This document shows positions 31,415-57,927 of a DNA stretch of 64,000 nucleotides, piece by piece (the first letter of the stretch is position 1; every line of letters begins with the position of its first letter). The position numbers and the translations under genes are program-made. The DNA is taken from the NCBI GenBank assembly GCA_000091205.1, contig AP006494.2; one strand, 5' to 3'. The notes below the pieces were generated by a model that was not told the origin of the DNA, did no database searches, and worked only from the letters and a program-made list of their open reading frames with translations. The DNA comes from Cyanidioschyzon merolae. Lineage: Eukaryota.

Positions 31415-32775
31415 CCACGTCAGAATGACATACACCTGGCCCTCTAACTCAGACGCACGCTCTAAAATTTTGGCCTCTTCCGACTGGCATCAACACCAGC
31501 CTTTGTGGGATTTTTCCGCGACTGCATCATTCTCCTATATCTTACCTCCAGCATTTGAAGCGCCGGTCCCTCATATGCTGCCAGCCTCACTTTCAGCAGT
31601 CGAAGGATGCATGTGGCCGCGCTCACGTCCCAATCCCGCTCCTTCCGGGTGGTGTCAACACATCGCGTGCACCGGCGCTATTCGCGATCGACGCTTCGCT
31701 TGGCTCTTTCATCTTCTTCGTGCCTATCCACGCTGCGCCTTGCGCATCGATGACAATTCGCTGTGGCCTCGTGTTCATATAGCTCCATCTCAAATTGTTC
31801 TCCGAGGCCTGCCATGCGTCACGTGAACGCTCGCACCAGCGCTCGGCACGCGCCCTCGGAGAGCAAAGGACGCCCTCCGCAGTGCCCGTCACCGTTTCCG
31901 CGCCCGGTGCGGTCCGAAAAAGATCACGGGCGTCTTCTGAGCGATAACTCGTCGAAGGCGCTGTCCGCTGCACTATGAAGAGGGCGCCTATCCGTTCGAT
32001 GGAGGATTTCTGGTACATTATATCGTCTCCAAGGAAACACGTATCGGAAGGAAGATCCAAGCTGGAGAGCCAGTCGAGAAATTTGAACCCATCTACGCTC
32101 CCTTCGTGCAAAGCGTGGCGCTGTCTCCACTGGCAGCGACCGCTGCAGTGACCGAAGTTGGATTCCACGGCTCTTCCCGATGCAAACAGAGGATACGAGA
32201 GTTTCCGGGGGCATACCCATTGGAGATATCTCGACACAGCCGGATGCCGTTTCGTTGATGGAAACGAAAAGAGGAGGAGTCGTGTTGCGGAAGTAATCGA
32301 TTATATGACATGAGACGATCAGTGAACTTTTGGCTCGAGCTCGTAAACAAGTCTGCAGCAGTCATCGTCAGGTATTTTCCGTCGTCAACCCAGCGGTGCA
32401 AATTGCTGCGCGCACCATTGACCTTGAAACAGAGGCATAGAAAGCCTGGAGTGTGCGCGATGTGAGCATGCTATACGTAAGGAAAGGCCAAGCGAGGAGG
32501 CGTTTAGTTATGATTTGGGTCATGACGTCGATTAATTTACGAAGCCTTGATTGAAGGCTTCACGAACCATCACGATTCCGCTAACATCAAGAGTTCCGGC
32601 GGGAAGGAGTCGAAGGATCCGCAACGAAATGACAACCGAGAATCCTAAAGCGCATATGAATCTTGGTCCCTTATTGCTGCACTTGTGGTGTTGAGGTTGC
32701 GTATGTAAAGAGTGTTTGGAATAAATTGAAAGACGGGAGCAGAGCGCGCAATTCCATATCAAATTTTAATGCTAT
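31415..32775 (-). mobile_element. repeat family B, full copy; right arm of the inverted pair
   Basis: It is the reverse complement of 20030-21345. Its inner end has cgcacgctctaaaattttggcctcttcc, the reverse complement of the shared terminus. Confidence 0.85.
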
Positions 32776-33672
32776 GCCAGTAAAGTGTGCGCTGGAACTG
32801 CACGCGGGCGCATTGCGCAACCTCGAGAGCCTCGCAGGATGGCGATGACCGAAGTTGAAAATTGCTCGCTGACAATCAAAGAAAGAGAGTCCGTGACGTC
32901 CACCGGTACAGGTGTCGAACACTTGTTCTGTTTCTGGGGCTTAATATTCGGTGCAATGCATCGATCTGGGGCTCTGTGAAATTCGATAGCATGAATTGCG
33001 GGAAATAGCGGTCTCGGATACAATTTTTTCCGTACCCCCAAGCGAGGACGCCTCTAGGCTGATGTGCGTCTCCTATCGCCTCTTAATGGACCGACGAAGC
33101 CTTAATAGTTGTGCAAGGGCCGTGCAACGCGGGTTCTCCCGCAGAGCACAGCGCAGGCGACGAGACGCAGCAATCGCTCCGAACAGAACCCGCAGCGGTG
33201 CCTCCAGTTTCGCAAAGAACGATTGAGCCAGGCTCTACACCATGGGCATGGATGAAACGATCAAACGCTTTCACTTCACGGGGTGGCTGCTCCGCAAGCA
33301 CTCGAAGCTGGGGACATGCAAAGCGGAGCCGAAATCTCCGCCCTGGTTGTAGAGAGCTGCGGCACGGCGGGAGGATGCCTCCGGTGAGCTCCATCGCTCT
33401 CGCCGAGCAGACAACATCACCGATTGTTTTGATAGGAGGACCTTTGGTTCCAATTACATAACTGCGAACTGGCGAATAATGTCGGCAATCGGGAGAATGT
33501 TCTCGATGGCGAACCGGTGCTGCCGCAAAGCTCACCGGTAGGTTAGTAGCCTCGGGCGGTGATTGCTGTTTCAATCGGAGCGATTGAGGACGCGCTTCCC
33601 GTGCTATCATTGCTACTAGAAGACCTTGTGTAGTTCCGCACGCGCTGTGCTGATTGCATAGCGTCATCAATC

Positions 33673-37668: not shown

Positions 37669-38931
37669 CCGTACCTTGGCGACAGCAGTCCAATAAGAAG
37701 CTGCGCTGGCTGGTCTTGCGGCACTGCAAACTACCCTCAGAGCACATTGGCAGGTAGAGCGCGCCCCTGCGACGTCCGAGAATCACCCGCCTCTGTACGC
37801 GCGCGAAAACAGAGCGCTGCGACCGGAGTTGCGATTTCGATGCCGCGCAGCGCCTCGACGGCAACGCGGGTTATCAGCGTAATCGTGCGCGGCAACTGTT
37901 CATGTGCGTAGTTCAACGCGATTCCTCATCGCTCAGGCGGGTGCGTCTACGCGGAGCGGTGTTTATTCGTTGCTCGATCATGCAGGGGAGTGCGAGCGGT
38001 GGCTTCCGAGTACGAGATGGAGCACAATTACGTTTTGCTTCTTGTGTGGGGCCCTTCGCACGGAAGATTTTGAAAGTTCACCGTTGAGAGCGGCCTACCG
38101 TTCGGATGTTGCCCTCAGAGTGTAGATGGTCATCGCTAGCGATAAATGTGGATGCTCCTCGCGTGTAGAGCTTGCTGGCATGGACGGAAACCTGAGTGTT
38201 TATCACGGTTTTCACATTCACGCTTCAACCTTGACTGTCGATCTTAGGGCGGGATTTGAAGAGATTGCAGCGCCGATTCGCGATAAGCGCTCAAGCGTCG
38301 TGTAATCCAATCTACCAAATAATTTGCAGCATTTCGGGACTGATGTTTCCTGCCAGGACACCTTGACAGGTGCTCGTCTAGAAACGTGCATGATGATTGG
38401 CTTCATTGCTGTTGCCACTGAGCAAACTTCGGGATAATAGTGCCCTCATGGTTTCTCTTCTGAGTCCAAACCGAAAAGGGATCCCGAAGCGGACAGCGTG
38501 CATCAATTGGTGCACTTTTTGGTTAGTAACGGATCTGGCGCGGGGCGTGGAACTCGAAACTTTCTGGCGCTCGTCTGGTTAACCACAATCGCAGCCGATC
38601 CCGATATGGGTACAGCAAAGCAGCTCAGTCTCCGCGAGGCGATCAAAGCAGGATGCGTCCGGCATAGCCGCACGTGCCCTCCTTTGTCTCGATGCCCAGA
38701 GAATCCTCGAATAAATCTATCCTTTTTTCTTAGGCAAATAATTACCTGGCGTCGTTGGAATGCACACGAGCTTGGATTGCAGCGGCAGTCGTTTTCCCAA
38801 TTTTCTTGCGAACCGCGCATCCTGGAATATGGTTACATGTACCGATTTCGCCTCAGGAAGAAAGCCGTCCGCTTTGACGAAATCATGCTCGTTATTTTGA
38901 CCACAATGGCGGCTTTGAAGGGCCTCACTTT

Positions 38932-40312
38932 TTCCGATTAACGCACCACACTTTGTCAGACAAGATTTTTACGGGTCCATCGATTTTCCTCCAGCGCCCG
39001 CTTCCGAGTTGGGGTTTCTTCGCACAATCATCGATACCTGCTGTTGGCGGCTTGTTCCGAGACTGCCTACCTTTCCCTTATCTTGTCTCTGGCTATGAGT
39101 ACACCGGTCTCTCGTGCCTCATCAACTCCCAGATCTGATGTCGATGGATGCTGATGGCAGTGCAAGTCCCGATTACACCGCACGGGGATATTGTCGACGC
39201 ATTTCGTGCATTGGCAAATGTTGCAATGTATGCTTCATTTGCCATATTCACCTTCTTTGTATACAGCCCCTGTGCTCGCTTCGTAACGGCAACACAAGGC
39301 TATGCGTAGATGAGACCTTATCCTCACCACAACTCATCCTCCAAGCGCCACCGCGTGGCGCGTGAGCACTTGATTCAGCGCTCGATACATGCCCCCGAAG
39401 GGCACAGAGTCCTCCCTGGATGCTCTTCGCGACATCTGCAACCAGTGCTGCACCGCACGACGACGGGTTTCTTCTAGGCGACAAACTCGGCGAGTACGCT
39501 GTCCAACGGGCGCGTAGGCGCACATTGTCCCATTCGATAGCGGATTTGTGGAGAGCGATGTCGTCTAGTGTGAAACAAGGACCAGAAGAAATATCGACGC
39601 TGGAGATCGAGTCCAGAATATTCTCTCCATCCGCGCTCCCTTCGTGCAATAGAGTTGCATAGTACCCATTGGAAGCGATCATTAGATAGCAAAGGCGAGT
39701 CCGAGACCATTTTGGATGCAAAGCGAAGCGACGGGAGCCTCCAGGAGCATATACCATGAAAGGTATCAGGCTGTGTGGAATCCCGCGACATCGATGGACA
39801 CAAGGCAACATGGTTTGTCTTTCTGACGGACATTATCATCGGATATGACACAATCTGTGAACTTTTGGCATGAGCTCCTGATCAAGTCGTCAAGGAACCT
39901 GGTCGAGTACTTATCATCGTCAATGCAGCGGAGCGCGTCCCTGTGCCCGCGAGCTGCCTTGAAACAGTCAGACCGAAAGCTTGGGGAACTCATGATTTGG
40001 ATATGCTTGATGCAGGAAAAGCGGAGGAATGGAGGCCTTTGGATAAGAACTGCATAATGGTATCGGTTATTTTACTGACGTGGGGTTGAGGGCGTCGCGA
40101 ATCATCGTGGTTTCGACGAATTAACGGATTCTAGCGACAGGAAGGGACTGCTCCGAAAAGATGACCAGTATCGTAAACCAAGGAAAGAGTGCGTAAGTCC
40201 GCATTGATGTGCTTCGAAGGTCAAGGCTGTTCATCTAGAAAAAGCTGGGGAAAGAACGGAAATACAGGAGGAGAGCGAAGAATTCCGTGTTCTGTTTTGA
40301 TCTGACATGAGA
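38932..40312 (-). mobile_element. repeat family C, copy 1 (about 1.38 kb); left arm of an inverted pair
   Basis: It is the reverse complement of 43843-45224. ORFs 39248..39811, 39114..39365 and 39845..40057 are identical to 44152..44901, 44784..45035 and 44088..44300. It encodes a transposase-like fragment on the minus strand. Its inner end is ...gttttgatctgacatg. Confidence 0.85.
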
Positions 40313-42376
40313 AGGAAGCGTAGCTTGGTTTTTGATTTGCGCGCTCATTTCTCTCCCCAGTTTCCTGCAGCTACACGTTTGGGAACAAACATGGCTCACC
40401 CTGTGAGTCTTCACTGGTTAAGACGGACGGATGACGTAGCACTTCACCGGGACGCTATCAATTCCGTGGTTTCAGTGCAATCGAGTGAATCGCAGCCTCA
40501 AGACGAGCTGTTGCTGTCAGAGAGTCGCGCTGGTGCTACGGCTTCGACGTTGGGAACGTCATCAAAGCCTTCGTTAGCTGAAGTTTCAACCGGAATTAAG
40601 CCGCAAACCAATATACAACGTGACTCACTTCGCTTACCTGAAACAGAGCGAGAGTATGAAAAGAGATCGCGTTCGAGCCAGTGGGCGAATGGAGACCTGA
40701 GTTTTCCCGAGAGAGAATGCCCGACTGTGGAAGTGAAACCTCGTTTCAGGCGAAGAATCATTTTTGGTGAGAGAAGGCAGTACGCGTTCTTTCAGGATGC
40801 TTTGTTTCCAGCTCTGTCTGACGCACCAGAGACGAGAGGTGCTATGGCCGATTCGCCCTCCGCGGACACTCCAAAACCCGCCTCCCTTGAAAGCTGTTCA
40901 GAAAGGGGAAACGGAGCCGCTTTGCACAAGACGAGAGACTCGTGCGACGTCGTTCCTGCGTTTCGGGAAAGCATTTGTTTGGGAGCTGATGCGAACAGAC
41001 TGAGCGCCGTATCCGGAGACTCTCTCAAGCTCGAAGATGATTCGAACCAGAAGCATTTTTCACTGGATAGCTCCCTAGGCCCGAACTCAAGGGCTGCCTT
41101 ATCTGATGAAATTAGCTTCCCAGGGGCACGGACGCATAGCTCAGAAGCGCTGCAGTTGGAGCTGAACAAAAGCGCCGAGAATGCGGAGTGCTCAACGATC
41201 TACGTCTATCTTTACCCCGATGGTTATTCATTTTCAGAAACAGGGTACCCTAGGTTCAGTTTCGATGGAAACTCTGATCGAATACTCTTTTGCTTAGATC
41301 AGGGTGTCCTGCCCTCTAGTTTTGAATTTCGCGCTCCGAAACGGGCTGACAGCATCAATAACGTTCGTGACGCGGTCATACTGGATTATACGCGGCCGAA
41401 GCCAAAGAAATTCCACATTACTTTGAGGCCTGACTATTTGAATATATGCCTCGCAATTGCAGAAAGTCCATACGCTCGGGAACTAAGACAAGCAGATAGA
41501 GTGCTGCAGTTGGAAGCAGAGCTACTTAAGCTTTTGCACGTTTTGGATGACTTGGAGCCTCGACTTGACCATCAAACGCTGTCGTCTCATACAGAATCCG
41601 CGCAGGTTCTTAACTTTGCTAGAACTGCAAGGCAGCATGTGGAGGTTACATTCACTAGATCACTTCCGCTTTTGCGGCTGTTTCTGACGAAACGTATGAA
41701 CAGAAATCGTCGATCCAGAGGAAAAGCAAACATCGATCTTGCATCACAGATGCTGCTTCTCGTGGCTGGCAACGAAAACCTTAACCGTTATCGTCGTACG
41801 CGAATGCGCAGCGTCACCGGTCTTCCAAGGCAGACTTCTTCCCTAGAGCTGAAGACGCCGGCAGACATTGCGGGCGCCCAACCTCTTCGAAGACCTAGTT
41901 TCTCAAACGTCATCGGGCGTTTGCTTCGGCAGCTTCGTTTCGTGTTGCATCGAGCGAGTGCAACCACGATCCAGCCAAAGTCCAACGAAGCCCCAGCTGT
42001 GACGAATGCGGACGAACCCTCTGGACAGTTGGATACCCCTACTGCGTCTGATCGAAACGCCCGACCTGCATCGAGATCGGGCGAACCAAGAATTGTATGT
42101 CTACTCGATATCATCGTCCGACCGCAACGCGGATGCGAATGTGTCATCCGCAGAGGTCAGGAAAAGAATCGAGATTTGGACATTCTACGCATCCCCGTTG
42201 GATCGGAAAGAAACGCTCACATTTTTGCGAACCAGTTTCGGCGCCTCATGCGTGGGGAAGGTTTCGTATGCGAGCAGGACTTGACGCTTCCGAGCGAGAA
42301 CAGGGTCACAGGGGAAGATAACGCTTCGGAGACGCCAGCGGCGGACGCTAGTGCTTTGCGGTTAACGAACGAGTAA
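40307..42376 (+). CDS. hypothetical Ser-rich protein (689 aa)
   Basis: A long uninterrupted ORF with low-complexity Ser/Arg-rich stretches. I recognise no domain. Its first ATG is the last three bases of the C inverted-repeat arm. Confidence 0.35.
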   Translation: MRRKRSLVFDLRAHFSPQFPAATRLGTNMAHPVSLHWLRRTDDVALHRDAINSVVSVQSSESQPQDELLLSESRAGATASTLGTSSKPSLAEVSTGIKPQTNIQRDSLRLPETEREYEKRSRSSQWANGDLSFPERECPTVEVKPRFRRRIIFGERRQYAFFQDALFPALSDAPETRGAMADSPSADTPKPASLESCSERGNGAALHKTRDSCDVVPAFRESICLGADANRLSAVSGDSLKLEDDSNQKHFSLDSSLGPNSRAALSDEISFPGARTHSSEALQLELNKSAENAECSTIYVYLYPDGYSFSETGYPRFSFDGNSDRILFCLDQGVLPSSFEFRAPKRADSINNVRDAVILDYTRPKPKKFHITLRPDYLNICLAIAESPYARELRQADRVLQLEAELLKLLHVLDDLEPRLDHQTLSSHTESAQVLNFARTARQHVEVTFTRSLPLLRLFLTKRMNRNRRSRGKANIDLASQMLLLVAGNENLNRYRRTRMRSVTGLPRQTSSLELKTPADIAGAQPLRRPSFSNVIGRLLRQLRFVLHRASATTIQPKSNEAPAVTNADEPSGQLDTPTASDRNARPASRSGEPRIVCLLDIIVRPQRGCECVIRRGQEKNRDLDILRIPVGSERNAHIFANQFRRLMRGEGFVCEQDLTLPSENRVTGEDNASETPAADASALRLTNE

Positions 42377-42554
42377 GACGGACCGTCATATTCCAAACCC
42401 AAAGATGGAAAATTCATGTTCCGATAGAATTTCTCATAGAGCATAGTGCATGTTGCTGCGCGAGGCGGCCGCATGTATAGGACTGGGGAGGCGTTCGACT
42501 GTTCCAGGCTGCATACAGGAGGTGAAGCAGCACGGCTGCTGAAATGACGCTTCT

Positions 42555-43709
42555 CTAAGCGCTTCGAACGGGCAATTTCCATGACGCGGCGATTTCATCG
42601 AGCGCAGGCTGAATTTCTTGATACTGAAACTTAAGACCGCTTTGCAACAGACGCTTTGGGAGCACGCGTTGGCCCTGGAGCACAAGTTCCGCCGCTTCGC
42701 CAAGAATCAGTTGAAGTGTGAAACTGGGTACCGGTAGCCAGTTCGGGCGTTTGAGCGCTCTTGCAAGTGAATCGCAAAACTTTTGAAACTGAACTGGGGT
42801 TGGCGCCGTGACGTTGTACACACCTTGAAAATCGGGTGATTCCAGCTCGTGCATGATAATGTTCACCAGATCTTGAATGTGTATCCACGATATCCACTGG
42901 CGTCCAGATCCAATCGTTCCACCTATGAACAAGTTAAAGAGCGGAAGCATTCGGCTCAAAGCCCCCCCATCCGGGCCGAGTACTATGCCAAATCGATTGA
43001 TGACTGTCCGGATTCCCGCATCTTGAGCAGCTGCTTCCCACTTCTTTGCGACTGATGCTAAAAAGTCCGTCCCTATCGAAGGCGAATCCTCGTCGAACGT
43101 TTCTACTTCAGATGTACCGTAGTAGCCAACAGCAGATGTGGAGATGAGAACCTTTGGTTTCCTATCAGCATGATGAACAGCTCGGACGAGCTGAAGGGTC
43201 CCGTTCACGCGGCTCTCCAGAATGCGCCTCTTGCGCTCTGCCGTCCACCTACCTTCTGAAATGGGTTCGCCAGCTAGATTAATTATAGCATCACTTCCAG
43301 CCACTGCCTCCACGACCTCCTTTGCCGGCGCATCGGCAGCAGTCGCTTCAAAGTATATTGCTTCCACCTTATAGTTAAAGGTTTTGCGGGCTTTCTCAGT
43401 ATCACGCGCCAAAAGCGTCACCGCCTTCCCCGAACCGAGAAGTTTGCGCACAAGCGCCCGGCCAACAAAGCCTGAGCCGCCACTCACAAGCACGGTTTTC
43501 GCCCTAGTATCGGATGCCTCAATGCGTAGACTATTTTTGAAAGCCCGTCGAGCACAGCGATTTGACGATTGAAGACAGTTTCTAGGCTCTTGTTTGCACC
43601 AGTCACCTACGAAGCTCGAGACACGAGGACATGCTCCAGCAAAAGCAGGCGCGTGCAAAAGCGGTCGCTGCTGATTTGGCAGAGCCAACAAGCAAAAGAA
43701 AGACAACAT
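42555..43709 (-). CDS. SDR39U1-type NAD-dependent epimerase/dehydratase (YfcH/DUF1731 family) with N-terminal targeting-like extension
   Basis: Rossmann motif VLVSGGSGFVGRAL and a full-length YfcH-like architecture with the C-terminal DUF1731 region (QQRVLPKRLLQSGLKFQY). A hydrophobic, Arg-rich leader of about 75 aa precedes the conserved core. Confidence 0.75.
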   Translation of the reverse strand: MLSFFCLLALPNQQRPLLHAPAFAGACPRVSSFVGDWCKQEPRNCLQSSNRCARRAFKNSLRIEASDTRAKTVLVSGGSGFVGRALVRKLLGSGKAVTLLARDTEKARKTFNYKVEAIYFEATAADAPAKEVVEAVAGSDAIINLAGEPISEGRWTAERKRRILESRVNGTLQLVRAVHHADRKPKVLISTSAVGYYGTSEVETFDEDSPSIGTDFLASVAKKWEAAAQDAGIRTVINRFGIVLGPDGGALSRMLPLFNLFIGGTIGSGRQWISWIHIQDLVNIIMHELESPDFQGVYNVTAPTPVQFQKFCDSLARALKRPNWLPVPSFTLQLILGEAAELVLQGQRVLPKRLLQSGLKFQYQEIQPALDEIAASWKLPVRSA

Positions 43710-43842
43710 TCTTTATCCAGTCCAACAAATCGGACGTGGCTATGCGCTCTGTTCACACACGAAAGATAAAGTGTACACCTGTGCAGGGTTAAGAAAAATT
43801 TGACGTTTGTTCACGCGCTTCAGGGAAGCTACTTCCATGTCA

Positions 43843-45224
43843 GATCAAAACAGAACACGGAATTCTTCGCTCTCCTCCTGTATTTCCGTTCTTTCCCCAG
43901 CTTTTTCTAGATGAACAGCCTTGACCTTCGAAGCACATCAATGCGGACTTACGCACTCTTTCCTTGGTTTACGATACTGGTCATCTTTTCGGAGCAGTCC
44001 CTTCCTGTCGCTAGAATCCGTTAATTCGTCGAAACCACGATGATTCGCGACGCCCTCAACCCCACGTCAGTAAAATAACCGATACCATTATGCAGTTCTT
44101 ATCCAAAGGCCTCCATTCCTCCGCTTTTCCTGCATCAAGCATATCCAAATCATGAGTTCCCCAAGCTTTCGGTCTGACTGTTTCAAGGCAGCTCGCGGGC
44201 ACAGGGACGCGCTCCGCTGCATTGACGATGATAAGTACTCGACCAGGTTCCTTGACGACTTGATCAGGAGCTCATGCCAAAAGTTCACAGATTGTGTCAT
44301 ATCCGATGATAATGTCCGTCAGAAAGACAAACCATGTTGCCTTGTGTCCATCGATGTCGCGGGATTCCACAACAGCCTGATACCTTTCATGGGATATGCT
44401 CCTGGAGGCTCCCGTCGCTTCGCTTTGCATCCAAAATGGTCTCGGACTCGGACTTTGCTCATCTCAATGATCGCTTCCAATGGGTACTATGCAACTCTAT
44501 TGCACGAAGGGAGCGCGGATGGAGAGAATATTCTGGACTCGATCTCCAGCGTCGATATTTCTTCTGGTCCTTGTTTCACACTAGACGACATCGCTCTCCA
44601 CAAATCCGCTATCGAATGGGACAATGTGCGCCTACGCGCCCGTTGGACAGCGTACTCGCCGAGTTTGTCGCCTAGAAGAAACCCGTCGTCGTGCGGTGCA
44701 GCACTGGTTGCAGATGTCGCGAAGAGCATCCAGGGAGGACTCTGTGCCCTTCGGGGGCATGTATCGAGCGCTGAATCAAGTGCTCACGCGCCACGCGGTG
44801 GCGCTTGGAGGATGAGTTGTGGTGAGGATAAGGTCTCATCTACGCATAGCCTTGTGTTGCCGTTACGAAGCGAGCACAGGGGCTGTATACAAAGAAGGTG
44901 AATATGGCAAATGAAGCATACATTGCAACATTTGCCAATGCACGAAATGCGTCGACAATATCCCCGTGCGGTGTAATCGGGACTTGCACTGCCATCAGCA
45001 TCCATCGACATCAGATCTGGGAGTTGATGAGGCACGAGAGACCGGTGTACTCATAGCCAGAGACAAGATAAGGGAAAGGTAGGCAGTCTCGGAACAAGCC
45101 GCCAACAGCAGGTATCGATGATTGTGCGAAGAAACCCCAACTCGGAAGCGGGCGCTGGAGGAAAATCGATGGACCCGTAAAAATCTTGTCTGACAGAGTG
45201 TGGTGCGTTAATCGAGAAGAGTGA
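43843..45224 (+). mobile_element. repeat family C, copy 2; right arm of the inverted pair
   Basis: See copy 1. It carries the best-preserved transposase-like ORF (44152..44901, 249 aa). Confidence 0.85.
44152..44901 (+). pseudogene. decayed DDE-nuclease-like ORF, possibly PIF/Harbinger (DDE_Tnp_4)-related
   Basis: CLVSIDVAGFH compared with GAIDGTH (D1). LISMIASNGYYATLLHEGSADGENIL compared with [29 protein letters not shown], where the first Asp is lost. SAIEWDNVRLRARW compared with VIERAFGLLKGRWRIL, with the same IE-8aa-RW spacing. Related fragments occur in family B (GYAPGNS, DDIMYQKSSIERIGALF) and family D (GYAPGGSHPF, DDIAFHKSSIDW). The Harbinger assignment is an inference from motif memory and was not searched. 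Confidence 0.4.
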
Positions 45225-45469
45225 AATCCAAATTGCGCGCCAGTTTTCATGGCGCCCCTGCGCATGATTTCTGACACGCGTTCTGTATTTTCAATTCAGA
45301 GCTACAGATCCCCGATCTCCACGCACGCTCGGTCTTGGCTCTCTTCCAATGGTTTGTAGGCGCAAATGTTCGGCGACATCGACGTCCGCCGTTTGTGGGC
45401 TCTTGGGTGCTTACTTCGCAGACAGATTTGGTTCTCCGTTACATGCTAATTATTGTTAGCACAACGAAA

Positions 45470-45960
45470 AACGATCTACCACATTAGGGTGCATGAGAAC
45501 GCACATGTCCAGACGCCTCCCAACCATTTTTGACAGGGTGCTTGCTATCAGTTCCAGCTGCTCCTTGTACACCTCTGGAATGGTAGGCTGACCCGCAAAG
45601 TCGGATCTTGTCAGCTCTTCAGGTCTCGTCCTCATAACCAAACATCGTCTGAAATTGTTGGCGGCGATGATGGCCCGGTTCAGGAACTCCAAGCGTTTAT
45701 TGCCACTGGTGGAACGGACTTGTGCAAGGAGTCCTCGAACTCGCGCCCTCTGTGCCATTCGCTGCTCTTTCAGCTCGCCGTGCTTTCCTATCGTCCAAGT
45801 GCTCCGCTGGCTTCTCTCGATCTCGAACTCGTGAAGTGTATAACCCATTGCATTCCTTATTTTCGAAAATGAACGCACTCGTTTATGCCGTTGGGTAGGG
45901 ACCTTCTCGGATGGATAAGGACTTATGGAAGAAAGACAAATACGCCCCGGTATCACCGTG
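45470..45960 (-). repeat. dispersed repeat family F, copy 3
   Basis: Its reverse complement contains aatggcacagagggcgcgagttcgaggactccttgca, matching F1 and F2. It lies about 250 bp outside the C right arm. Confidence 0.55.
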
Positions 45961-47094
45961 ATGAACGCGTCAGCGATTCACCCAGTAGAGCGATCGTAAA
46001 GATTAAGATAGGAGACACTGCTCGAGGAGATGAAGCATAGAGCGTACGGAGGAATGCAAAGCAGGCCAAGACCTATAGAACTGGCAAGAGCTCGAACGTA
46101 AAGGATATGGTGTAACATCACAGTTTCCAATAGAGGGAAGTCCCAAGATGTCAGGGAAGAGTCATCTATGATTCGACGAATTGGGTGCTGCTGTATGGGC
46201 CTTGTCTACGAGCGAGACTGACGCCGCAAAATATACCCACTGCAGCTAGAATAGATAATGACTTCGTTCTCATCGAGTTCGATCGTACATACAACGGGCC
46301 TGCTCCCAGAATACCCATCTGCGCTCCGACCGTTTCTCCCGAAGAGAGTCTCATGGGCTGGAAAAAGAAACCGAAATCCATGCGCATTATACGAATAGGG
46401 ACGTTCGCGGAATTCAGTAGTTGGCATATCTGTGGAGATCACCGTCATTGAAATTGGACTTTTTATGCGACTGTGTCCGAATGTTCTCAGGACCACACGA
46501 AAAGGCCTTTTGAGAAACAGAGGTGTTTGCGTTGGATACGGTCTTCGCTTTTGCCTTCTCTAAGGTGATCAACGAGCCGTTTTCTACAGTTGACCCCCAG
46601 CACGATTTGAGCACGTCGTTTTCTGGCGCAGAGCGTGTATACTTCTTTCTTACAGTGTTTGACAATCACTCGAGTCCTGCAGTGTGACTGCCCTGAAGGA
46701 TGAATGTAGTCCTCCTTGCACTTCTCAGTAAAGAGTATATCCTATGGGCAACTCGTCAACGATCTATGCTGTACACTGCATCATGATTTCGATCATCTGC
46801 TTTACACTGGGAAAAAGCATAGATTACGCATAGCGGGGGTGAAATATATTTGATTTGAAAGACTAATAAGATCGTTGTCTGGTGCCGATTGCAATTAAAT
46901 TTGAGTAATATTTCCACCCAACACTGGGTTCGCGTGAAGGTTGCGAGAAGGGCTACAAGAGTTAAGCTCTTTCGAACTGGAGATATTCACCGTGGATCTT
47001 TCAGGTCCAAAAGGATATAAAAGAGCGCTTGAAGACATCTCTTCGTGCTTGCTATATTTGAAAGAGTCAAATATGAGAACTAGTATTTAGTTTA

Positions 47095-48822
47095 CATTCA
47101 GAGTACTAAATTCTTGAACAAGTCTACCGGCAGGTTATTTTTGTGTTTGGTTGTTTTTCCCACAGGTATTGAACAATAAGGTTGTCCGTTGGTGAGAGAA
47201 TGGCGGTGGATAGAGTTCATGCCATCGCCGCTAGCATACCGACACGGATCTTACTTGTACAAGTCAGTCATTTTACATTCAGCAGGTGCACCAGCGACCC
47301 TTGTGGCAGTGCTTGTTCTGAACATTGCGTACCCAAAATACAACGTACTACAATGTATATATTCGACAATCTTCTGATTCGCTCATTGTATCACATAGAT
47401 CCTCTGAGAAATACCATCTGCGAAGCCACATGATGTGGGGCTTTCACATCTTTCATACTAGCGGTGATAAACAGACACCGATGAACAGAAAAGTGCGCTG
47501 CGATGCACGACGATTGCGTGTTGCCAGCAGATTGTCGAATTCGCAGCGCAAGGCGAAGGCCCGCTGCAGGACTGACTGGCGTTCGTGTCAGTCGGTGATG
47601 CTCCATTTTGCAGAAACGATCAACTCGTATATATGTCCTCACATAGGGGCGACACGAAGTTCTTAAAGAGGCGACAAGCGACATTGAAGGCGGCATGAGC
47701 CCTAGCGGTGATTTCTTCTGGTGATCTCTTACAAATCGCCGAACGAAAGGACATTCCAATACCTCATCCTCCGGCGAGGCACCTCCTGGATTCCTTCACC
47801 CACATTCCTTGGTAATGCCCTTAGACAGTATTGCTTTCCCTCGCTAAACAGCGCTCAGGCAGTATGCAGCTGTATCTGTCGTTGAGCTGCCCTACTTTTC
47901 CAGAGATCGGCAGTGTCGGGAGTCGGGCCCCAGAGACGCCAAGAGGCGTACCGACCAATGAAATGACAGCGTCCGGACCCGTCACGACGCTCTGAGACTC
48001 GTGTCGAACGGAGTGGATGCTGTGTGAGATCCATTCATAGACACGTGCGCGTCCACGTGGCTCGTGGGGACGCTCCCTCGCAGATGCACTTGAGACGTCG
48101 CTGTGGTCATCAACAGCTTGGCTCTCCGGAGGCAGGAAGCGTGCATTCTCCAGCATATTCAATGAGTTAGCAACGTATCGGACCGATAACTCGCAACGCG
48201 TGGAGGTAGCGAATGGCGCTGGACGTGCACTCGCGAGCAACGGCTGCACTCATGCTCGGTCGGCGAGAGCGTGCAACCACAGCAGGAATCGATTCTTCAC
48301 GGCTCCCGTGGATGCGTTCAGAGCGACAAACACGCGTGACCAGCGCGAGTGCGCACAGTGACCGGTAGAGAAGAAGAGTGTGAAACAGAGCTGCATGCAC
48401 GTGGTGGTGTACGGTGAGCTGATTGAGCGCCGGATGGCGAGAGAATCGAGCGAGACGTGCTTGCTGTGATGCGCTTCAACAATCCAAAATGCGCTCAGGC
48501 ACGTCCTGCACCGAGACTCGAACGCCCAATCGGTATCTGGAAATGTTTCGTGCGTTCGGAGCGTCCAGCGGTTTGTGTCATACGTACATTCGAGGCAACT
48601 GTTTCATACTGAGTGTGGGGATTGTGCTGGAATGCTGGAGACTTGCGCTGAGAAAATCAGAGGCTGGCAGCAATAGGAGCGGATTCCGGCATGTAGCAGG
48701 GCAATAGTATGGTACGGTTAGGAATCCAGACAGGATGTGGCACAGCGTATATAGAGAGGAACCTGTTTCCCATGGTAGTTGGTAGACGATGCTAGTGTTT
48801 CTCTCTTTAAGATGCTATTGAT
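47095..48822 (+). mobile_element. repeat family E, copy 1 (about 1.73 kb); left arm of an inverted pair
   Basis: It is the reverse complement of 55683-57412. ORFs 47182..47433, 47391..47759, 47821..48249, 48167..48400 and 48423..48707 are identical or near-identical to 57072..57323, 56746..57114, 56256..56684, 56105..56338 and 55798..56082. No recognisable coding domain. AT-rich tracts flank it. Confidence 0.85.
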
Positions 48823-49463
48823 TATAGAACAGTTTACAAAGCTTGGGTTCTGAAATTCTCACGTTGATTTGTTCATTAATTGTCTTGTCGACTCCAACGA
48901 GCTCTTCGAGTGCTGTGCTAAATGAATCGATACTTCTTCAAGACGAAACATAGCATAGTGCTTTCAAGATGCGAGGTCTAGTACACTATTCATGTACTTC
49001 TGCATACAATGGAACTCCAAGACCGTGGGCACTTTTGGAGGTATCTGATTTCATTTTCGAAGTACCCCTGGCGGCGAGGGTTGGTGTGATCCGATTCAAT
49101 ACCCGTTCTAAAACGTCATTCAGGAGAAAGTCTCGCGAGAGTATTTCAGGTGTTTGATCGGCTAGTTGCTCATGGGTGTTATTGGGTATGCAGCTGTCCC
49201 AGTGAAATCGTCTGTGAGCTCTCGAAACAACTAAAGAAGCGGAGTACTTCGTAGAGTCCCATGACGAAAAGCATGCCTTGTCAAGCTGTGTCCGATGCTT
49301 CCCTTCTTCTTTGCTCGGTAACCGGTGCTTTATACACAAGAAGTTCATGTTTTCTAATTCAGTCAACGATGCCCATTAAAAACCAGGGAAGCATACTGAA
49401 AACTAGCGCATTCTAGCATGGATAAACAATTATTGTTTGGAGCGAAACGACTTGAGAAAAAGT

Positions 49464-50636
49464 CTACCCCCTTCGATACCGATTGCCTTCCCCGCGGCGA
49501 TGGTCGTCTTTGAAAAGATCCCATTTCCGCTTTGCAGCTATAATCTGGTCCTCAAGCTGCGTATCCCGGGCGCCATGTGTATCATTCAAATCCGTCTCCA
49601 GTGGCTTCTTTTGCGGCTCAGGTTGCGAATTATGCTCATCACGATGTATGTGAGCAAGGCAGCAGTCACCGAAAGGAAGCTTTGTAGGTGGCTCCTCTGA
49701 AGTAATCGTGCGCCCCTGCAGAAATCGTCGAAACGCATGCGCGTTCTCAAAGTACCTCGTTCGCGAGCAATGGTTGTCTATATATACAATTTTCGGCTTT
49801 CTTCGACCTAGCGTCTCCGCATCACAAGCATGCTTTTCGTCTGCCCTTACCTCTTTGACGGATTGCTCGTACTGAGAAGCCAGGGCCTCGAGAGCTGACA
49901 TCTCGCGACCGAGTTCATACCCGCGGATAAAAGCCCACTCAGCTGCAACCGCTATAAAGCGCAGAACAAGGTTTCGCTGTTCCTCTTCAGTATCCGAATG
50001 CACGTCCGTAGGCAGTAAAGGGAACGGAAGCGCTTCAAAAGCTGTTTTTTCGTGCATGCTACCTTTCATACATATCCGTTTCGAAAAATTGCGAACAAGA
50101 TCGCACAGTCTCCGCAGATTCCTCGTGAAGTTGATTTTTGCTTCCCGCACGCCCATTGGCAATTCCGCCCCGAGTTCTTCTGAAGTTAAATTACGGATTG
50201 ACTCCAGAAATGGGCTATCCAGACCAAACGGCCCTAGCCACAGGCAGCCCTGCACCAGCTTCAGGTATTGCTGGTACAGCTGCCGAACTTCGGCGCAGGC
50301 GCCTCTTCTCTCTGCATAAGTGTTTCGTTCTGAAAGCTCACCGAAACCTTTTCTTTCAAGCAACTTATCCGCAAGAATTGCGATGTAAAAGGGAAAAAGA
50401 ATAAAACTCTGTAGTCTCCAAGTCGGAACATCCTCCAAAGCGGAGTATTCACCATGACAACCAAGTTGAGTCCGAGCTACTCGGAGCGTTTCGAGTGCGG
50501 AACTCAGCTCGGAATCATTCACAAAAACCTCTCTCGCCGAAAAAGCTGCGTCGTCTAACGCTAGCCTTATTGCCAGGTAAACACTTTCGATAAGCTTATG
50601 ACCGTTTGCGTTTGAGGCTCGTTCCTCTGTGTTCAT
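49464..50636 (-). CDS. hypothetical protein (390 aa)
   Basis: A long ORF with balanced composition. No domain recognised. Confidence 0.35.
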   Translation of the reverse strand: MNTEERASNANGHKLIESVYLAIRLALDDAAFSAREVFVNDSELSSALETLRVARTQLGCHGEYSALEDVPTWRLQSFILFPFYIAILADKLLERKGFGELSERNTYAERRGACAEVRQLYQQYLKLVQGCLWLGPFGLDSPFLESIRNLTSEELGAELPMGVREAKINFTRNLRRLCDLVRNFSKRICMKGSMHEKTAFEALPFPLLPTDVHSDTEEEQRNLVLRFIAVAAEWAFIRGYELGREMSALEALASQYEQSVKEVRADEKHACDAETLGRRKPKIVYIDNHCSRTRYFENAHAFRRFLQGRTITSEEPPTKLPFGDCCLAHIHRDEHNSQPEPQKKPLETDLNDTHGARDTQLEDQIIAAKRKWDLFKDDHRRGEGNRYRRG

Positions 50637-50709
50637 TGTGGAAGGTTTTTACCACACCGATAACGAGCATGCTTAAAAGAATCTTCAGGTTGCGCAGCAG
50701 CGTCGCTCT

Positions 50710-52290
50710 GTGGCATCGCGAGCGCTCAGTGTAGTGGTATTGGTGTTCCCCGGAGGGATGCGTTCCCGAAACGCTACTCCACCTTGTTTCGTGCAGAAAC
50801 TGTTTCGGTTTTCGCGTAAGTGCACTTCTTTTCAGCAATGCGCTAGTGTTCAAATTGTGAAACGGGAGGCGCCTGGTTCAAGAGTGGTGGTGGCGCTTGC
50901 GTTCAACTACCACAACTGCCAAGCTGCACCACACGTTGGTAGCGAATTCCGGCAGGGCGAGGTTGCTCAAAGGATCGTTAAGTACAGGACTTCAGACGGT
51001 GGGGAACGGGCGGTCTCTGTTAGAATATTTGGGAAAGCGAAAGAGAATAAACAACAACACGTGGAGCCGCCGTCGCAGCAACCACTGCAAAAGCTGCCCA
51101 CGCAGCAGCAGGAACAGAAACCTGAGGCCACCGCCAGTGACTTTACAGCTCAGAACCGACGTCTCAGCAGCTCTTTCGTTACCAAGGCTGTCAAACTCGT
51201 AGGTCCCGCAGTGGTTCGAATAGATACGGAACGGGTCGTGCAGCTACCTGCAGATCCAGTGCTGGAAGATCCGCTTTTCCGATACTTCTTTGGCGATGAG
51301 TTTCAGCGACAGTTGCCGAAGGAGCGCACGGAGCGAGGCCAGGGGTCTGGGTTCTTCATTTCCTCCGATGGTCTGCTTCTAACGAATGCCCATGTTGTTG
51401 CAAAAGCATCGAAGGTAACCGTCACCTTAATCGACGGGCGCTCGTATCCAGGAAAAGTCGTGGGCACCGATGATCTACTCGACTTGGCTGTCATCCGGAT
51501 CGATACACATTCGGAGAAGGTCCCAACTGCTCCCTTGGGCTCATCCGGAGAGCTCCAGGTGGGAGACTGGGTCATTGCACTGGGCAATCCAGTCGGTCTT
51601 GACAATACAGTCACGTTGGGCATCGTGAGTAGCCTTAATAGGTCGAGCGCGGAAGTTGGCATTCCGGATAAGAAAATCAACTTTATTCAGACTGACGCTG
51701 CAATAAACCCTGGTAACAGTGGTGGTCCGCTCGTCAATGAATTCGGTGAAGTCGTCGGGATCAGCACAGCGATTAGGCCAAACGCGGAGGGCATCGGTTT
51801 CGCGATACCAATTGACACAGCGAAAGCTGTCCTCGACATGCTCGCGAAGGGCGAAAAAGTTCAACACCCATTCATTGGGATTCAGATGGTAACGCTCACG
51901 CCGGAACTTGCCAAACAGAACAACCAAGACCCTAATGCGCTCGCTCTTATTCCGGAGGTTTCGGGTGTACTTGTCCTGAAAGTCTTGCCCAAAACCCCCG
52001 CTGCAGAATCGGGACTTCGCCGATTCGATGTCATTCTCGCGGTGAACGGCAATGCGATATCAAATGCGAGAGATATTCAAAAAATCGTCGACAGCTCGAG
52101 GGTCGGTCAGGAGTTGAAAATACGGGTCCTTCGCGGCGTCGATGGAAAGACGATCGATATCAGTATCCGGACGGCAGACATGACGCAGTTTAGGTTAGAA
52201 GAAGAGAAGAAACTGTCACCGGAGGAGGGGCAGGAGGCACCTCCCGGCATAGTGCCCATGCCCCGCCATCGAAGATTCTCAATTCCCTAA
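50710..52290 (+). CDS. DegP/HtrA-family serine protease with C-terminal PDZ domain
   Basis: Trypsin-fold triad context (TNAHVV ... DLAVIRID ... GNSGGPL) and a PDZ region (GVLVLKVLPKTPAAESGLRRFDVILAVNG). A 150-190 aa N-terminal extension precedes the protease core, with a hydrophobic leader and a Gln-rich linker. Confidence 0.85.
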   Translation: MASRALSVVVLVFPGGMRSRNATPPCFVQKLFRFSRKCTSFQQCASVQIVKREAPGSRVVVALAFNYHNCQAAPHVGSEFRQGEVAQRIVKYRTSDGGERAVSVRIFGKAKENKQQHVEPPSQQPLQKLPTQQQEQKPEATASDFTAQNRRLSSSFVTKAVKLVGPAVVRIDTERVVQLPADPVLEDPLFRYFFGDEFQRQLPKERTERGQGSGFFISSDGLLLTNAHVVAKASKVTVTLIDGRSYPGKVVGTDDLLDLAVIRIDTHSEKVPTAPLGSSGELQVGDWVIALGNPVGLDNTVTLGIVSSLNRSSAEVGIPDKKINFIQTDAAINPGNSGGPLVNEFGEVVGISTAIRPNAEGIGFAIPIDTAKAVLDMLAKGEKVQHPFIGIQMVTLTPELAKQNNQDPNALALIPEVSGVLVLKVLPKTPAAESGLRRFDVILAVNGNAISNARDIQKIVDSSRVGQELKIRVLRGVDGKTIDISIRTADMTQFRLEEEKKLSPEEGQEAPPGIVPMPRHRRFSIP

Positions 52291-52501
52291 AGCAAAAGCG
52301 TCATAGGTGTTTTGCCAATCACGGCTTTCACTAATACGTGCAGATGAAACTGATTGGATATCGCGCCTCGGCACTTAGGCTCCCGTATATTACTTCGCTC
52401 GTGTGAGAGCGTTTGGAGGAGCCTCAACAATGTTCATCCTTGCGGATCGTAAAATTTTCTACACCATTCTCTCGTGCAAAACGTTCGGATCCACTTCGCG
52501 T

Positions 52502-53329
52502 TCATAGGCTGCTCTGGTCCATCCGAGCAATCCGCTGCTCTTCAGCCAGGATGCTTTCTGTCAAGAGATCTGGAGTAGGACACTGACGTATCCAAAAGCC
52601 TTCATGATCCATAAAACTGAAAAGGTCTGGAGCAGAACGTCCCGACTGGGCCTGCCGCAGCAAAGGAACGTATAGATCACAAAACTCATACAGGCTCTCG
52701 GAGAATCTTGCAGGTAATCCATCAGTATATGCAACCGTTTCCACTAGAGCGACTTTTTGATCCCTGCTTGCAAAACATAGCATGACTGGAAGAGCGTGCG
52801 CAGCGAGCAGTTCGTGAAGTTGACTGCATTGCTTGGCACTTCGCACACCAACTAACCACAACAGGAGCCGTTCACTGAAGAGAGCCGTAAGTTCAGAGAA
52901 AGAGGCAAGTTCCTGGCAAAGTGCGCAACTCCGTTCAAGATGTGATTCATGCTCGTCCACGCAAAGCAGTAGAGCTACTAGTGGCATACCTCGTTCCTCG
53001 CTCACGCCTAAGGCACTCACGAGGTCGCTGGCAGCCCTCCCAAGGTCTAAGACCTTCAGTTTGGCCAAATTATGTTCAAGATCATTTCGTTTCCGAGTGC
53101 ACTGCTCTTCCAGGAACTCGTGCAACTTCGCACCGCACATAGCTTCCTGTGAACGGAGGACGGTACTGAGCTCCTCGACTGTGGTGAAGCGTCCACCTGC
53201 ACCGGTTCCACCATTTAGCGACGACATGGCTGCTCGTGGTGCCTCTGCTCGCCGTAAAGCATCCAAACATACTTGTGTGCTTGTCGCGGAAGCTTTTGAG
53301 TGGCCGAGCGCTTCCCCACTATAGCGCAT
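52502..53329 (-). CDS. hypothetical protein (275 aa)
   Basis: An ORF with no recognised domain. It may be part of a larger spliced gene. Confidence 0.3.
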   Translation of the reverse strand: MRYSGEALGHSKASATSTQVCLDALRRAEAPRAAMSSLNGGTGAGGRFTTVEELSTVLRSQEAMCGAKLHEFLEEQCTRKRNDLEHNLAKLKVLDLGRAASDLVSALGVSEERGMPLVALLLCVDEHESHLERSCALCQELASFSELTALFSERLLLWLVGVRSAKQCSQLHELLAAHALPVMLCFASRDQKVALVETVAYTDGLPARFSESLYEFCDLYVPLLRQAQSGRSAPDLFSFMDHEGFWIRQCPTPDLLTESILAEEQRIARMDQSSL

Positions 53330-57412: not shown

Positions 57413-57461
57413 ACGCTGAGCACCTCCCTAACTATACTGGGAGCGAGCTGTTTTTCGAGAC

Positions 57462-57749: not shown

Positions 57750-57850
57750 GTGCTGCGTCGTGAGCAGCACTAGGAAGCCAAGGCTCCCTTTCGTCTGCTG
57801 TATTCCTGTGCGAATGAGTACTCGTCGGACGTGATTAAGCGCTTCGCGAC

Positions 57851-57927
57851 TGGTTGTCTTTGGGTGTGCTTGCTTGTGTACGTGTCTGTCTGCCTGTCAG
57901 CCTGTCTGCCTGTTTGGTTTCTTGTCC
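57851..57927. repeat. GT/CTGT-rich microsatellite-like tract
   Basis: gggtgtgcttgcttgtgtacgtgtctgtctgcctgtcagcctgtctgcctgtttggtttcttg; imperfect (TGTC/TGCC)n downstream of the HIG1 ORF. Confidence 0.6.

What the first reader, a model, noticed from the sequence alone, without database searches (positions are those of the whole stretch)
38932..45224. Second cassette: about 1.4-kb inverted repeat arms (family C) enclose two convergent genes
C1 (38932-40312) and C2 (43843-45224) are the reverse complement of each other, to the base over most of their length. The 3.5 kb between them holds exactly two convergent genes, the 689-aa Ser-rich ORF and the SDR39U1 epimerase. Both are transcribed out of the arms. 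The left arm ends precisely on the ATG of the 689-aa ORF (…gatctgacATG), and the epimerase ATG lies 134 bp from the right arm. This geometry is the same as for the B and E cassettes.
Basis: seen in the sequence. Interest (0 to 1): 0.7.

Follow-up and report, generated by a model that had tools for sequence, protein, structure and literature searches.

The report
Dead transposon pair flanking a gene inversion
Two near-identical, inverted copies of a dead Tc1/mariner-type transposon bracket two ordinary red-alga genes, and that two-gene block is flipped compared with related species; this is a clean example of a well-known kind of transposon-mediated rearrangement, not a new genetic system.

Summary
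The window is Cyanidioschyzon merolae 10D chromosome 12. The inverted repeat is real. The arms are 38925-40309 and 43836-45224 (1385 and 1389 nt, about 99% identical) and enclose only CML182C and CML183C, which are convergent. The arms are not a special cassette part. They are full-length, coding-dead copies of a dispersed ~1.35-1.4 kb family. At least eight copies lie in this window, 64-70% identical between loci. The family consensus and profile match IS630/Tc1/mariner (DDE_3) transposases. Orthologous loci in three other cyanidiophytes have no arms and no inverted repeats, keep the same two genes at the same place, and carry them in the opposite orientation. So the cargo is native, and 10D holds a lineage-specific inversion bounded by the arms. 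The likeliest mechanism is homologous recombination between the copies. Gene conversion best explains why the arms stay nearly identical: differences cluster at the outer edge, and one substitution is shared by both arms across strains. The "arm ends on the ATG" observation is an upstream in-frame ATG; the annotated and conserved start is 81 nt further in. The B and E "cassettes" do not share this geometry. Environmental contigs show both orientations but are unreliable across the repeat. This is an ordinary kind of event with moderate local interest.

The parts
38925..40309 (-). Arm C1: full-length dead copy of the ~1.39-kb IS630/Tc1/mariner-type relic. The 'head' is at 40309, facing the cargo, and the 'tail' is at 38925.
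   Evidence: Inverted-repeat limits. Collinear over its whole length with family copies A, B and D. The transposase-like frame is broken by a 1-nt deletion at 39773 and by stop codons.
43836..45224 (+). Arm C2: second copy of the same relic, with head at 43836 facing the cargo and tail at 45224.
   Evidence: It carries the 249-aa ORF 44152-44901 with a weak DDE_3 match. The DDE core is at 44338-44685.
44152..44901 (+). Remnant transposase ORF (249 aa). The first two catalytic Asp motifs are recognisable (VSIDVAGF, FTLDDIALHKS), the Glu motif is lost (AYSPSLSPRRNP), and there is no HTH domain.
   Evidence: Pfam DDE_3 E 7.6e-5 for this ORF. The family consensus scores 31.4 bits against a gathering score of 28.6. 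NCBIfam IS630 gives E 2e-7. A profile search reaches intact DDE_3+HTH transposases.
40391..42376 (+). Cargo gene CML182C (661 aa as annotated; Ser-rich N-terminal half, conserved C-terminal half, no Pfam family).
   Evidence: The exact sequence equals BAM80782.1. Orthologues from two outgroups align from this Met. The 689-aa ORF from 40307 is an upstream in-frame extension.
40310..40390 (+). The only unique sequence (81 nt) between arm C1 and the CML182C start codon.
   Evidence: Arm edge; start codon.
42555..43709 (-). Cargo gene CML183C: TIGR01777/SDR39U1-type epimerase-family protein of cyanobacterial type (ThyD-like), probably plastid-targeted.
   Evidence: Pfam Epimerase plus DUF1731. Identical to BAM80783.1. 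The closest non-red-algal relatives are cyanobacterial ThyD/TIGR01777 proteins.
43710..43835 (-). The only unique sequence (126 nt) between arm C2 and the epimerase start codon.
39684..39695 (.). Patch private to 10D arm C1 (12 nt here against 15 nt at 44451-44465). Together with SNP 39753 and the 1-nt deletion at 39773, it is absent from every environmental arm sequence.
   Evidence: It could be a private mutation, a short ectopic conversion tract or a reference error.
45196..45224 (.). Outer 29 nt of the arms (equivalent to 38925-38953), where 4 of the 7 arm-to-arm differences lie. Three of them are flank-linked and stable across strains.
   Evidence: This reads as the edge of the gene-conversion domain.

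Best explanation
The arms are two copies of an old, coding-dead DNA transposon of the IS630/Tc1/mariner superfamily. The family spread in the Cyanidioschyzon lineage after it split from Cyanidiococcus. Two copies came to lie head-first, 81 nt and 126 nt upstream of the start codons of two native, convergent genes (CML182C and CML183C), in opposite orientation to each other. Homologous recombination between the two copies then inverted the 3.5-kb block between them, which gives the arrangement in strain 10D. Because they are close together, the copies keep exchanging sequence by gene conversion. As a result they stay about 99-100% identical to each other while differing by 30-35% from their paralogues elsewhere. 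The structure is a by-product of transposon decay and recombination, not a mobile or regulatory cassette. One side effect is that both genes now have the same 1.39 kb of relic sequence upstream, so flipping the block does not change either gene's local context. SHOWN: the repeat, family membership, transposase ancestry, absence of the arms in outgroups, and the opposite block orientation in outgroups. INFERRED: two separate insertions, homologous recombination as the inversion mechanism, and gene conversion as the cause of arm identity.
For: Family: copies A1/A2, B1/B2/B3, C1/C2 and D align over the whole ~1.35-1.4 kb at 64-70% identity between loci, so arm limits coincide with element limits. 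Further copies sit at unrelated loci L015 and L036. Transposase ancestry: the consensus matches DDE_3 above Pfam's threshold and IS630 at E 2e-7. A profile search finds 302 relatives, including intact DDE_3+HTH transposases. All window copies carry stops or frameshifts. Empty sites and polarity: the loci from an unnamed cyanidiophyte (L019-L021), Cyanidiococcus yangmingshanensis (L022) and Cyanidium caldarium (L025) have the same two genes at the same place (in L019-L022 next to the E2F/DP gene, in L025 next to a PfkB gene downstream of LipA), no family sequence and no inverted repeats. In all three the block reads epimerase(+)/CML182(-), opposite to 10D. Over the 12 genes compared, 10D differs from L021 only by this inversion and by a RabGAP relocation whose breakpoints also carry family copies. 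Gene conversion: 4 of the 7 arm differences lie in the outermost 29 nt (binomial P of about 7e-6, my calculation). Position 44363 is G in both 10D arms but C in all ten environmental arm sequences, whichever flank they attach to. B1 matches B2 at 98-100% except for its last ~40 nt and first ~20 nt, which stay at family-level divergence. The unrelated E pair shows the same near-identity, which points to a process that does not depend on the element family. Literature: repeats make up 12.7% of the C. merolae genome against 0.59% in Cyanidiococcus (PMC9812998).
Against: No target-site duplication is recognisable and terminal inverted repeats are only short (7-8 nt in C; 10/11 nt in B1). The elements therefore cannot be shown to have arrived by two separate transposition events. 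Nothing excludes a single event that made both the second copy and the inversion. Arm identity could partly reflect a recent local copy rather than long-term conversion. The evidence for shared substitutions rests on short-read assemblies that may collapse the two arms. A genome-wide census of the family and of paired arrangements could not be made.
Confidence: 0.7

Rival explanations
1. One-step origin. A single resident element produced the second, inverted copy and the inversion in one aberrant or replicative intramolecular transposition event. This is the classic outcome for replicative elements, and alternative transposition of cut-and-paste elements can give similar products.
For: The end product is exactly what such events give: an inverted segment bounded by two oppositely oriented copies. 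No independent target-site duplications are visible that would prove two separate insertions.
Against: IS630/Tc1/mariner elements transpose by cut-and-paste (established knowledge of the superfamily). The unrelated E arms and the direct A pair show the same near-identity without an inversion relative to the outgroup, so pairing does not require inversion. Environmental contigs join both cargo ends to both flanks through an arm, which would place two arms on the ancestral orientation, but those contigs are unreliable.
Confidence: 0.12
2. The arms are young. The second arm arose by a recent local hop, or a recent copy, of an already diverged element. Its identity then reflects age, not gene conversion.
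For: Identity is 99-100% with very few differences. Local reinsertion is typical of Tc1/mariner elements (established knowledge). Each near-identical pair is private to its neighbourhood.
Against: All copies are coding-dead and no intact family transposase was found in the window. Differences cluster at the arm edge rather than being spread along it. Both 10D arms share G at 44363 against C in all other strains' arms. Both arms are present in strains that differ from 10D by up to about 1% in the cargo. B1 keeps divergent termini around a homogenised core. The unrelated E family behaves the same way.
Confidence: 0.13
3. Functional cassette. The arms are retained because they supply promoters to both cargo genes, or because flipping the block acts as a regulatory switch.
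For: Only 81 and 126 nt of unique DNA separate the arms from the two start codons. Five of seven full-length family heads in the window lie about 34-126 nt upstream of a gene pointing away from them.
Against: There is no recombinase gene and no short recombination sites. Because the arms are identical, inversion leaves each gene's upstream sequence unchanged, so it cannot switch anything locally. The head is no better conserved than the rest of the element. Copies at L015 and L036 are not next to a start codon. About half of the TEs in C. merolae carry repressive H3K27me3 (10.1101/2022.10.24.513474). No transcript data were available.
Confidence: 0.04
4. Composite transposon. The two arms and the two genes moved into this site as one mobile unit.
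For: The layout, two element copies bracketing cargo, looks like a composite transposon.
Against: The same two genes occupy the same syntenic slot in three outgroup lineages without arms. The transposase is dead. All 10 shown of the 13 contigs that carry the arm ORF map to this one locus.
Confidence: 0.01

Closest known systems
Inversions generated by ectopic homologous recombination between oppositely oriented transposon copies (for example Ty elements in yeast, IS elements in bacteria, Galileo/foldback elements in Drosophila)
   Same: Two copies of one element in inverted orientation sit exactly at the breakpoints of a segment that is inverted relative to related species lacking the copies.
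   Different: The segment here is very small (3.5 kb, two genes), and the elements are long dead yet still almost identical. The event is inferred from comparison, not observed.
Concerted evolution of inverted-repeat or palindrome arms by gene conversion (plastid inverted repeats, Y-chromosome palindromes)
   Same: Arm-to-arm identity is far above the divergence from paralogues. Differences pile up at the arm edge. A derived substitution is shared by both arms.
   Different: The arms are transposon relics of 1.4 kb in a compact nuclear genome. Coexisting flip-flop isomers, as in plastids, are not demonstrated.
IS630/Tc1/mariner (ITm) superfamily DNA transposons
   Same: A DDE_3-type catalytic core is recognisable, the element is about 1.4 kb long with short terminal inverted repeats, and the profile reaches intact DDE_3+HTH transposases.
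   Different: The catalytic Glu motif is lost, there are stops and frameshifts, no HTH domain and no TA target duplication. These are relics, not working members. A published EDTA annotation of C. merolae lists no Tc1/mariner elements and leaves 40% of TEs 'unknown' (10.1101/2022.10.24.513474).
Bacterial-type composite transposons
   Same: Two element copies flank passenger genes.
   Different: The passengers are native to the locus, there is no working transposase, and there is no sign of movement as a unit.

Membership tests
IS630/Tc1/mariner superfamily transposon | Transposase with a DDE_3-type (RNase H-fold) catalytic domain | tested here: met
   The family consensus scores 31.4 bits on Pfam DDE_3 (gathering score 28.6). 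NCBIfam IS630 gives E 2e-7. A profile of the window copies finds intact 300-400 aa proteins with DDE_3 at E 1e-22 to 1e-29 plus Tc3/HTH_33/HTH_23 domains.
IS630/Tc1/mariner superfamily transposon | Intact catalytic triad and open reading frame (a working element) | tested here: not met
   Every window copy has stops or frameshifts. In C2 the Glu-bearing motif reads LSPRR instead of LNPIE-like (read from the translations). No N-terminal HTH was detected.
IS630/Tc1/mariner superfamily transposon | Terminal inverted repeats | tested here: inconclusive
   B1 has a 10/11-nt terminal inverted repeat, ACCCATGTAAA / TTTACATGAGT. The C arms share only TGTCAGA / TCTGACA near their ends (read; below the tool's reporting length).
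IS630/Tc1/mariner superfamily transposon | TA target-site duplication | tested here: not met
   The bases flanking the arm ends are CC|, |AG, TC| and |AA. No TA or other duplication is present, which may reflect age and uncertain termini.
Composite transposon / mobile gene cassette | Cargo moves with the flanking elements, so it is absent from the site in relatives or present at other sites | tested here: not met
   The cargo genes are at the same syntenic position in three outgroup lineages without arms. All ten arm-bearing contigs shown (of 13 read) map to this locus only.
Site-specific invertible switch (Hin/Fim/FLP type) | Dedicated recombinase gene, short recombination sites, and a promoter or gene whose relation changes on flipping | tested here: not met
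   No recombinase family was found in or beside the unit. The arms are 1.39 kb. Identical arms leave each gene's upstream sequence unchanged after inversion.
TE-mediated inversion by homologous recombination | Inverted homologous copies exactly at both breakpoints of a segment inverted relative to an outgroup | tested here: met
   The arms abut the block. The block orientation is opposite in L019-L022 and L025, while neighbouring genes keep their order and orientation.
Flip-flop isomerism (both orientations coexisting, as with plastid inverted repeats) | Both junction configurations present in one population, shown by reads or clones that span an arm | tested here: inconclusive
   Arm-spanning contigs give the 10D orientation (L001, L008, L011) and the opposite one (L007, L009). 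These are short-read assemblies, and they are strain mosaics that switch at the arms, so they prove nothing.
Concerted evolution by gene conversion | Paralogous arms share derived changes within a lineage, and divergence is confined to repeat edges | tested here: met
   Position 44363 is G in both 10D arms and C in all ten other arm sequences at both flanks. Position 45036 is A in arms attached to either flank in some samples. Four of seven differences lie in the outer 29 nt. Caveat: collapsed assemblies.

The most novel reading that the evidence does not exclude
The inverted relic pairs in this region (C, E and the B copies) may be active recombination substrates, so that small gene blocks flip repeatedly and both orientations segregate in natural Cyanidioschyzon populations. 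That would be a nuclear analogue of plastid flip-flop isomerism, operating at several adjacent loci. The relic heads might also have been co-opted as the shared upstream regulatory DNA of the flanked genes.
Probability: 0.25. Interest if true: 0.5.

Novelty: new member of a known kind. Interest (0 to 1): 0.3.

Why it matters
C. merolae is used as a model of a minimal, stable eukaryotic genome. This locus gives a base-resolved example of how its lineage-specific repeat expansion reshapes gene order. Dead Tc1/mariner-type relics, which a published EDTA transposon annotation of this genome does not list as Tc1/mariner, sit at the breakpoints of micro-inversions and are kept identical by gene conversion. 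In practice, near-identical 1.4-1.7 kb repeat pairs can mislead short-read assemblies. They are also possible sources of off-target recombination in an organism engineered by homologous recombination. In addition, the two genes here retain only 81 and 126 nt of native upstream DNA, which matters for choosing promoter fragments. The mechanism itself is textbook.

Tried and rejected
(1) Mobile cassette or composite transposon: rejected by synteny with three outgroups.

(2) Using arm-spanning metagenome contigs to prove flip-flop: L007 and L009 show the opposite orientation, and L009 and L023 show a flipped E block. I then found what looked like a 10-fold divergence island in the cargo of L007 and L008. 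However, L023 shows the reverse pattern, with a 10D-like cargo and a diverged flank. Assembled orientation also does not track cargo haplotype. I concluded that assemblers switch strain and path inside the collapsed arms, so this evidence was set aside.

(3) Genome-wide census of the family. The word-indexed protein search with the consensus found only 2 proteins.

(4) RNA genes in the arms: no Rfam or tRNA hits.

(5) PDB sequence searches with the transposase consensus and with the Fanzor-like fragment gave only spurious hits.

(6) Fanzor identity of the fragment beside C2: Pfam, NCBIfam and a homologue search gave nothing, so it remains a lead.

(7) Centromere idea for the AT-richer dip at 26.1-26.9 kb: the paper checked gives no chromosome-12 position.

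(8) The bacterial promoter/terminator scanner was not used, because this is a eukaryotic nuclear genome.

(9) Literature on CML182C and CML183C: no papers mention them.


Full report
SOURCE AND OBSERVATION. Exact protein look-ups place the window on Cyanidioschyzon merolae 10D chromosome 12, an 859,119-bp record. The epimerase is BAM80783.1, the TAP42-like gene is CML184C, and lipoyl synthase is BAM80779.1. The inverted repeat is real. A global alignment sets the arms at 38925-40309 (C1) and 43836-45224 (C2), and BLAST gives 99.2% identity over 1394 columns. The differences are four SNPs within 29 nt of the outer edge, a 12- versus 15-nt patch (39684-39695 / 44451-44465), one SNP, and one 1-nt indel. 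A 730-nt block and the inner 536 nt are identical. The 3526 nt between the arms holds two convergent genes, CML182C and CML183C.

WHAT THE ARMS ARE. The arms are not unique to this locus. Sensitive BLASTN, TBLASTX and a multiple alignment show that they are collinear, end to end, with other ~1.35-1.4 kb segments in the same window:
- A1 4093-5435 and A2 24612-~25955, a direct pair at about 100% identity.
- B1 20023-21384, B2 31416-32777 and the truncated B3 17552-18221, at about 98%.
- D, at about 59230-60462.

Identity between these loci is only 64-70%. More copies lie at unrelated loci recovered from metagenomes, L015 and L036. Arm limits therefore coincide with element limits.

A majority consensus of the four sub-families reads, in one frame, FVSIDEAGF ... 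FTIDDIAFHKS ... AYSPMLSP. It scores above Pfam's gathering threshold for DDE_3 (31.4 against 28.6 bits) and matches NCBIfam IS630 at E 2e-7. A profile built only from window copies and two metagenome relatives was run against 1.84 billion representative proteins. It found 302 relatives at E<=1e-3. Most are short fragments, but the set includes intact 300-400-aa proteins that carry strong DDE_3 plus Tc3-type or HTH_33 domains.

Every copy in the window has stops or frameshifts, the catalytic Glu motif is gone, and no HTH region is detectable. Terminal inverted repeats are short (10/11 nt in B1; only TGTCAGA/TCTGACA in C) and no TA duplication is visible. The arms are therefore relics of an IS630/Tc1/mariner-superfamily transposon. 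The E arms (47092-48827 / 55678-57413) are not part of this family.

THE CARGO IS NATIVE AND THE BLOCK IS INVERTED. The epimerase has recognisable orthologues in other cyanidiophytes, and I fetched their loci. Three lineages were examined:
- An unnamed lineage (L019-L021; 64% protein identity).
- A Cyanidiococcus yangmingshanensis-type contig (L022; 69%; named).
- A Cyanidium caldarium-type contig (L025; 58%).

All three contain the same two genes side by side at the same place. None has any sequence of the family by BLASTN or TBLASTX, and none has an inverted repeat.

Gene-by-gene mapping gives this order for L021: o29021(-) ELO(+) RabGAP(+) LipA(+) EXOSC1(+) DP(-) epimerase(+) CML182(-) TAP42(-) HtrA(+) o52502(-) o53784(+). 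Strain 10D differs in only two ways. First, the epimerase-CML182 block is reversed, with C1 and C2 at its two ends. Second, RabGAP has moved and flipped, with B copies at the breakpoints; two nested inversions between B3/B1 and B3/B2 reproduce the 10D order (my inference). With three outgroups agreeing, the 10D orientation is the derived one.

This rules out a mobile cassette. It shows that the arms mark the breakpoints of a lineage-specific micro-inversion. It also fits published figures that repeats make up 12.7% of the C. merolae genome but 0.59% of Cyanidiococcus (PMC9812998).

WHY THE ARMS ARE NEARLY IDENTICAL. Several observations point to continuing gene conversion rather than youth.
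- Four of the seven differences between the arms lie in the outermost 29 of 1385 nt. By my binomial estimate this is about 7e-6 by chance, and it is the expected edge effect of conversion.
- In ten arm sequences from at least eight environmental samples, position 44363 is C whichever flank the arm is attached to, whereas both 10D arms have G. Position 45036 behaves similarly in a subset.
- B1 is 98-100% identical to B2 except for its terminal ~40 nt and first ~20 nt, which remain at family-level divergence. This looks like a diverged copy overwritten in its interior.
- The unrelated E arms show the same near-identity, which argues for a process that does not depend on the element family.

The caveat is that short-read assemblies may collapse the two arms.

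THE START CODON AND THE PROMOTER IDEA. The arm does end on ATG 40307-40309. However, NCBI's CML182C is 661 aa and starts at 40391, and the two outgroup orthologues align from that methionine. The edge ATG is the reverse complement of the element's conserved terminal CAT, which happens to be in frame. The true distances from arm to start codon are 81 nt (CML182C) and 126 nt (CML183C).

In the window, five of the seven full-length heads (A1, B1, C1, C2, D) lie about 34-126 nt upstream of a gene pointing away. A2 and B2 do not, and neither do the copies in L015 and L036. This may reflect insertion or retention bias near promoters. I could not test whether transcription starts in the arms. Because the arms are identical, flipping the block leaves each gene's upstream sequence unchanged, so a regulatory switch is unlikely. 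No recombinase is encoded nearby.

DO BOTH ORIENTATIONS EXIST TODAY? Most environmental contigs break at the arm edges, as expected. A few span an arm. L001, L008 and L011 have the 10D orientation. L007 joins the epimerase end to the DP flank, and L009 joins the CML182 end to the right flank. L009 and L023 also show the E block flipped.

I first read a 10-25-fold excess of divergence in the cargo of L007 and L008 (about 1% against 0.04-0.11% in the flank) as a sign of an old inversion polymorphism. L023 shows the opposite pattern, with cargo at 0.2% and flank at 0.7%. Assembled orientation also does not follow cargo haplotype. The simplest reading is that assemblers change strain and path inside the collapsed arms, so these contigs are not evidence either way. 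Long reads are needed; telomere-to-telomere assemblies of 10D and MS1 exist (PMC13353863).

COMPARISON WITH THE B AND E 'CASSETTES'. B1 and B2 belong to the same family but are arranged tail-in, with heads outward and B1's head next to RabGAP outside the pair. C is head-in. The E arms are a different sequence. E1 faces the 3' end of TAP42, and the E cargo holds at least four genes in the same orientation as the outgroup. The shared feature is only that each is a near-identical repeat pair.

VERDICT. The interpretation as a cassette with arm-driven genes is only partly supported. The best explanation (confidence about 0.7) is a pair of dead IS630/Tc1/mariner-type relics that mediated a two-gene inversion by homologous recombination and are homogenised by gene conversion. 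This is a new example of a known kind of event. It is useful for understanding C. merolae genome evolution and for assembly and engineering practice, but it is not surprising in mechanism.

Noticed in passing
window 4093-5435 and 24612-~25955: A direct repeat pair of the same transposon family, about 100% identical and 20.5 kb apart. The head of A1 lies about 75-90 nt upstream of the GMP synthase start codon (4017).
   Followed up: partly
window 17552-18221 (B3), 20023-21384 (B1), 31416-32777 (B2); RabGAP 18384-19988: In three outgroups RabGAP(+) sits between ELO(+) and LipA(+). In 10D it is flipped and moved to the far side of a 10-kb block, with B copies at every breakpoint. Two nested inversions between B copies would explain this. 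B1 keeps divergent ends around a core that is 98-100% identical to B2.
   Followed up: partly
window 47092-48827 and 55678-57413: The E arms are 1736 nt, about 100% identical, and unrelated to the DDE_3 family, with no protein-family match. They enclose TAP42, HtrA and at least two more genes in the outgroup orientation. Contigs L009 and L023 show the block flipped, but they are unreliable.
   Followed up: partly
window 45462-45860 (-), 14960-15226 (+), 17284-17511 (+); L036 6001-6400: A second repeated fragment lies next to family copies. Its D-(F/S)-NAA-I-(N/S)-I motif recalls the RuvC-III motif of TnpB/Fanzor, and a Fanzor1 element (CMe-1A, about 150 copies) is reported for C. merolae (PMC3627910). 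Pfam, NCBIfam and PDB profile searches did not confirm the link.
   Followed up: partly
window ~26100-26850: A local dip to 39-43% GC in a ~52% GC window, inside the B1-B2 interval. I wondered whether it is the chromosome-12 centromere, which would fit the local repeat density, but found no published coordinate.
   Followed up: partly
L007, L008, L023 compared with window 38925-45224 and 47092-64000: Arm-spanning metagenome contigs are mosaics. The cargo is about 1% diverged with the flank at about 0.1% in L007 and L008, and the reverse holds in L023. Nine of the 126 nt upstream of the epimerase differ in L007/L008. This probably reflects strain switching by the assembler at collapsed repeats, though real recombination mosaics are not excluded.
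   Followed up: yes
window 39684-39773: Three changes cluster within 90 nt of arm C1 (the patch, a SNP and a 1-nt deletion). They are private to the 10D reference and absent from all environmental arm sequences. They could be a private mutation, a short conversion from another copy, or a reference error.
   Followed up: partly
window ~59230-60462 (copy D): A solo, decayed family copy whose head lies about 85 nt upstream of the CML189C start codon (59143). It keeps the clearest DDE motifs (VVDETGF, FIMDDIAFHKS).
   Followed up: partly
window 42555-43709: The epimerase's nearest relatives outside red algae are cyanobacterial proteins named ThyD (thylakoid membrane protein) / TIGR01777. The red-algal protein has an N-terminal extension of about 70 aa, which suggests a plastid-targeted protein of endosymbiotic origin.
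   Followed up: no
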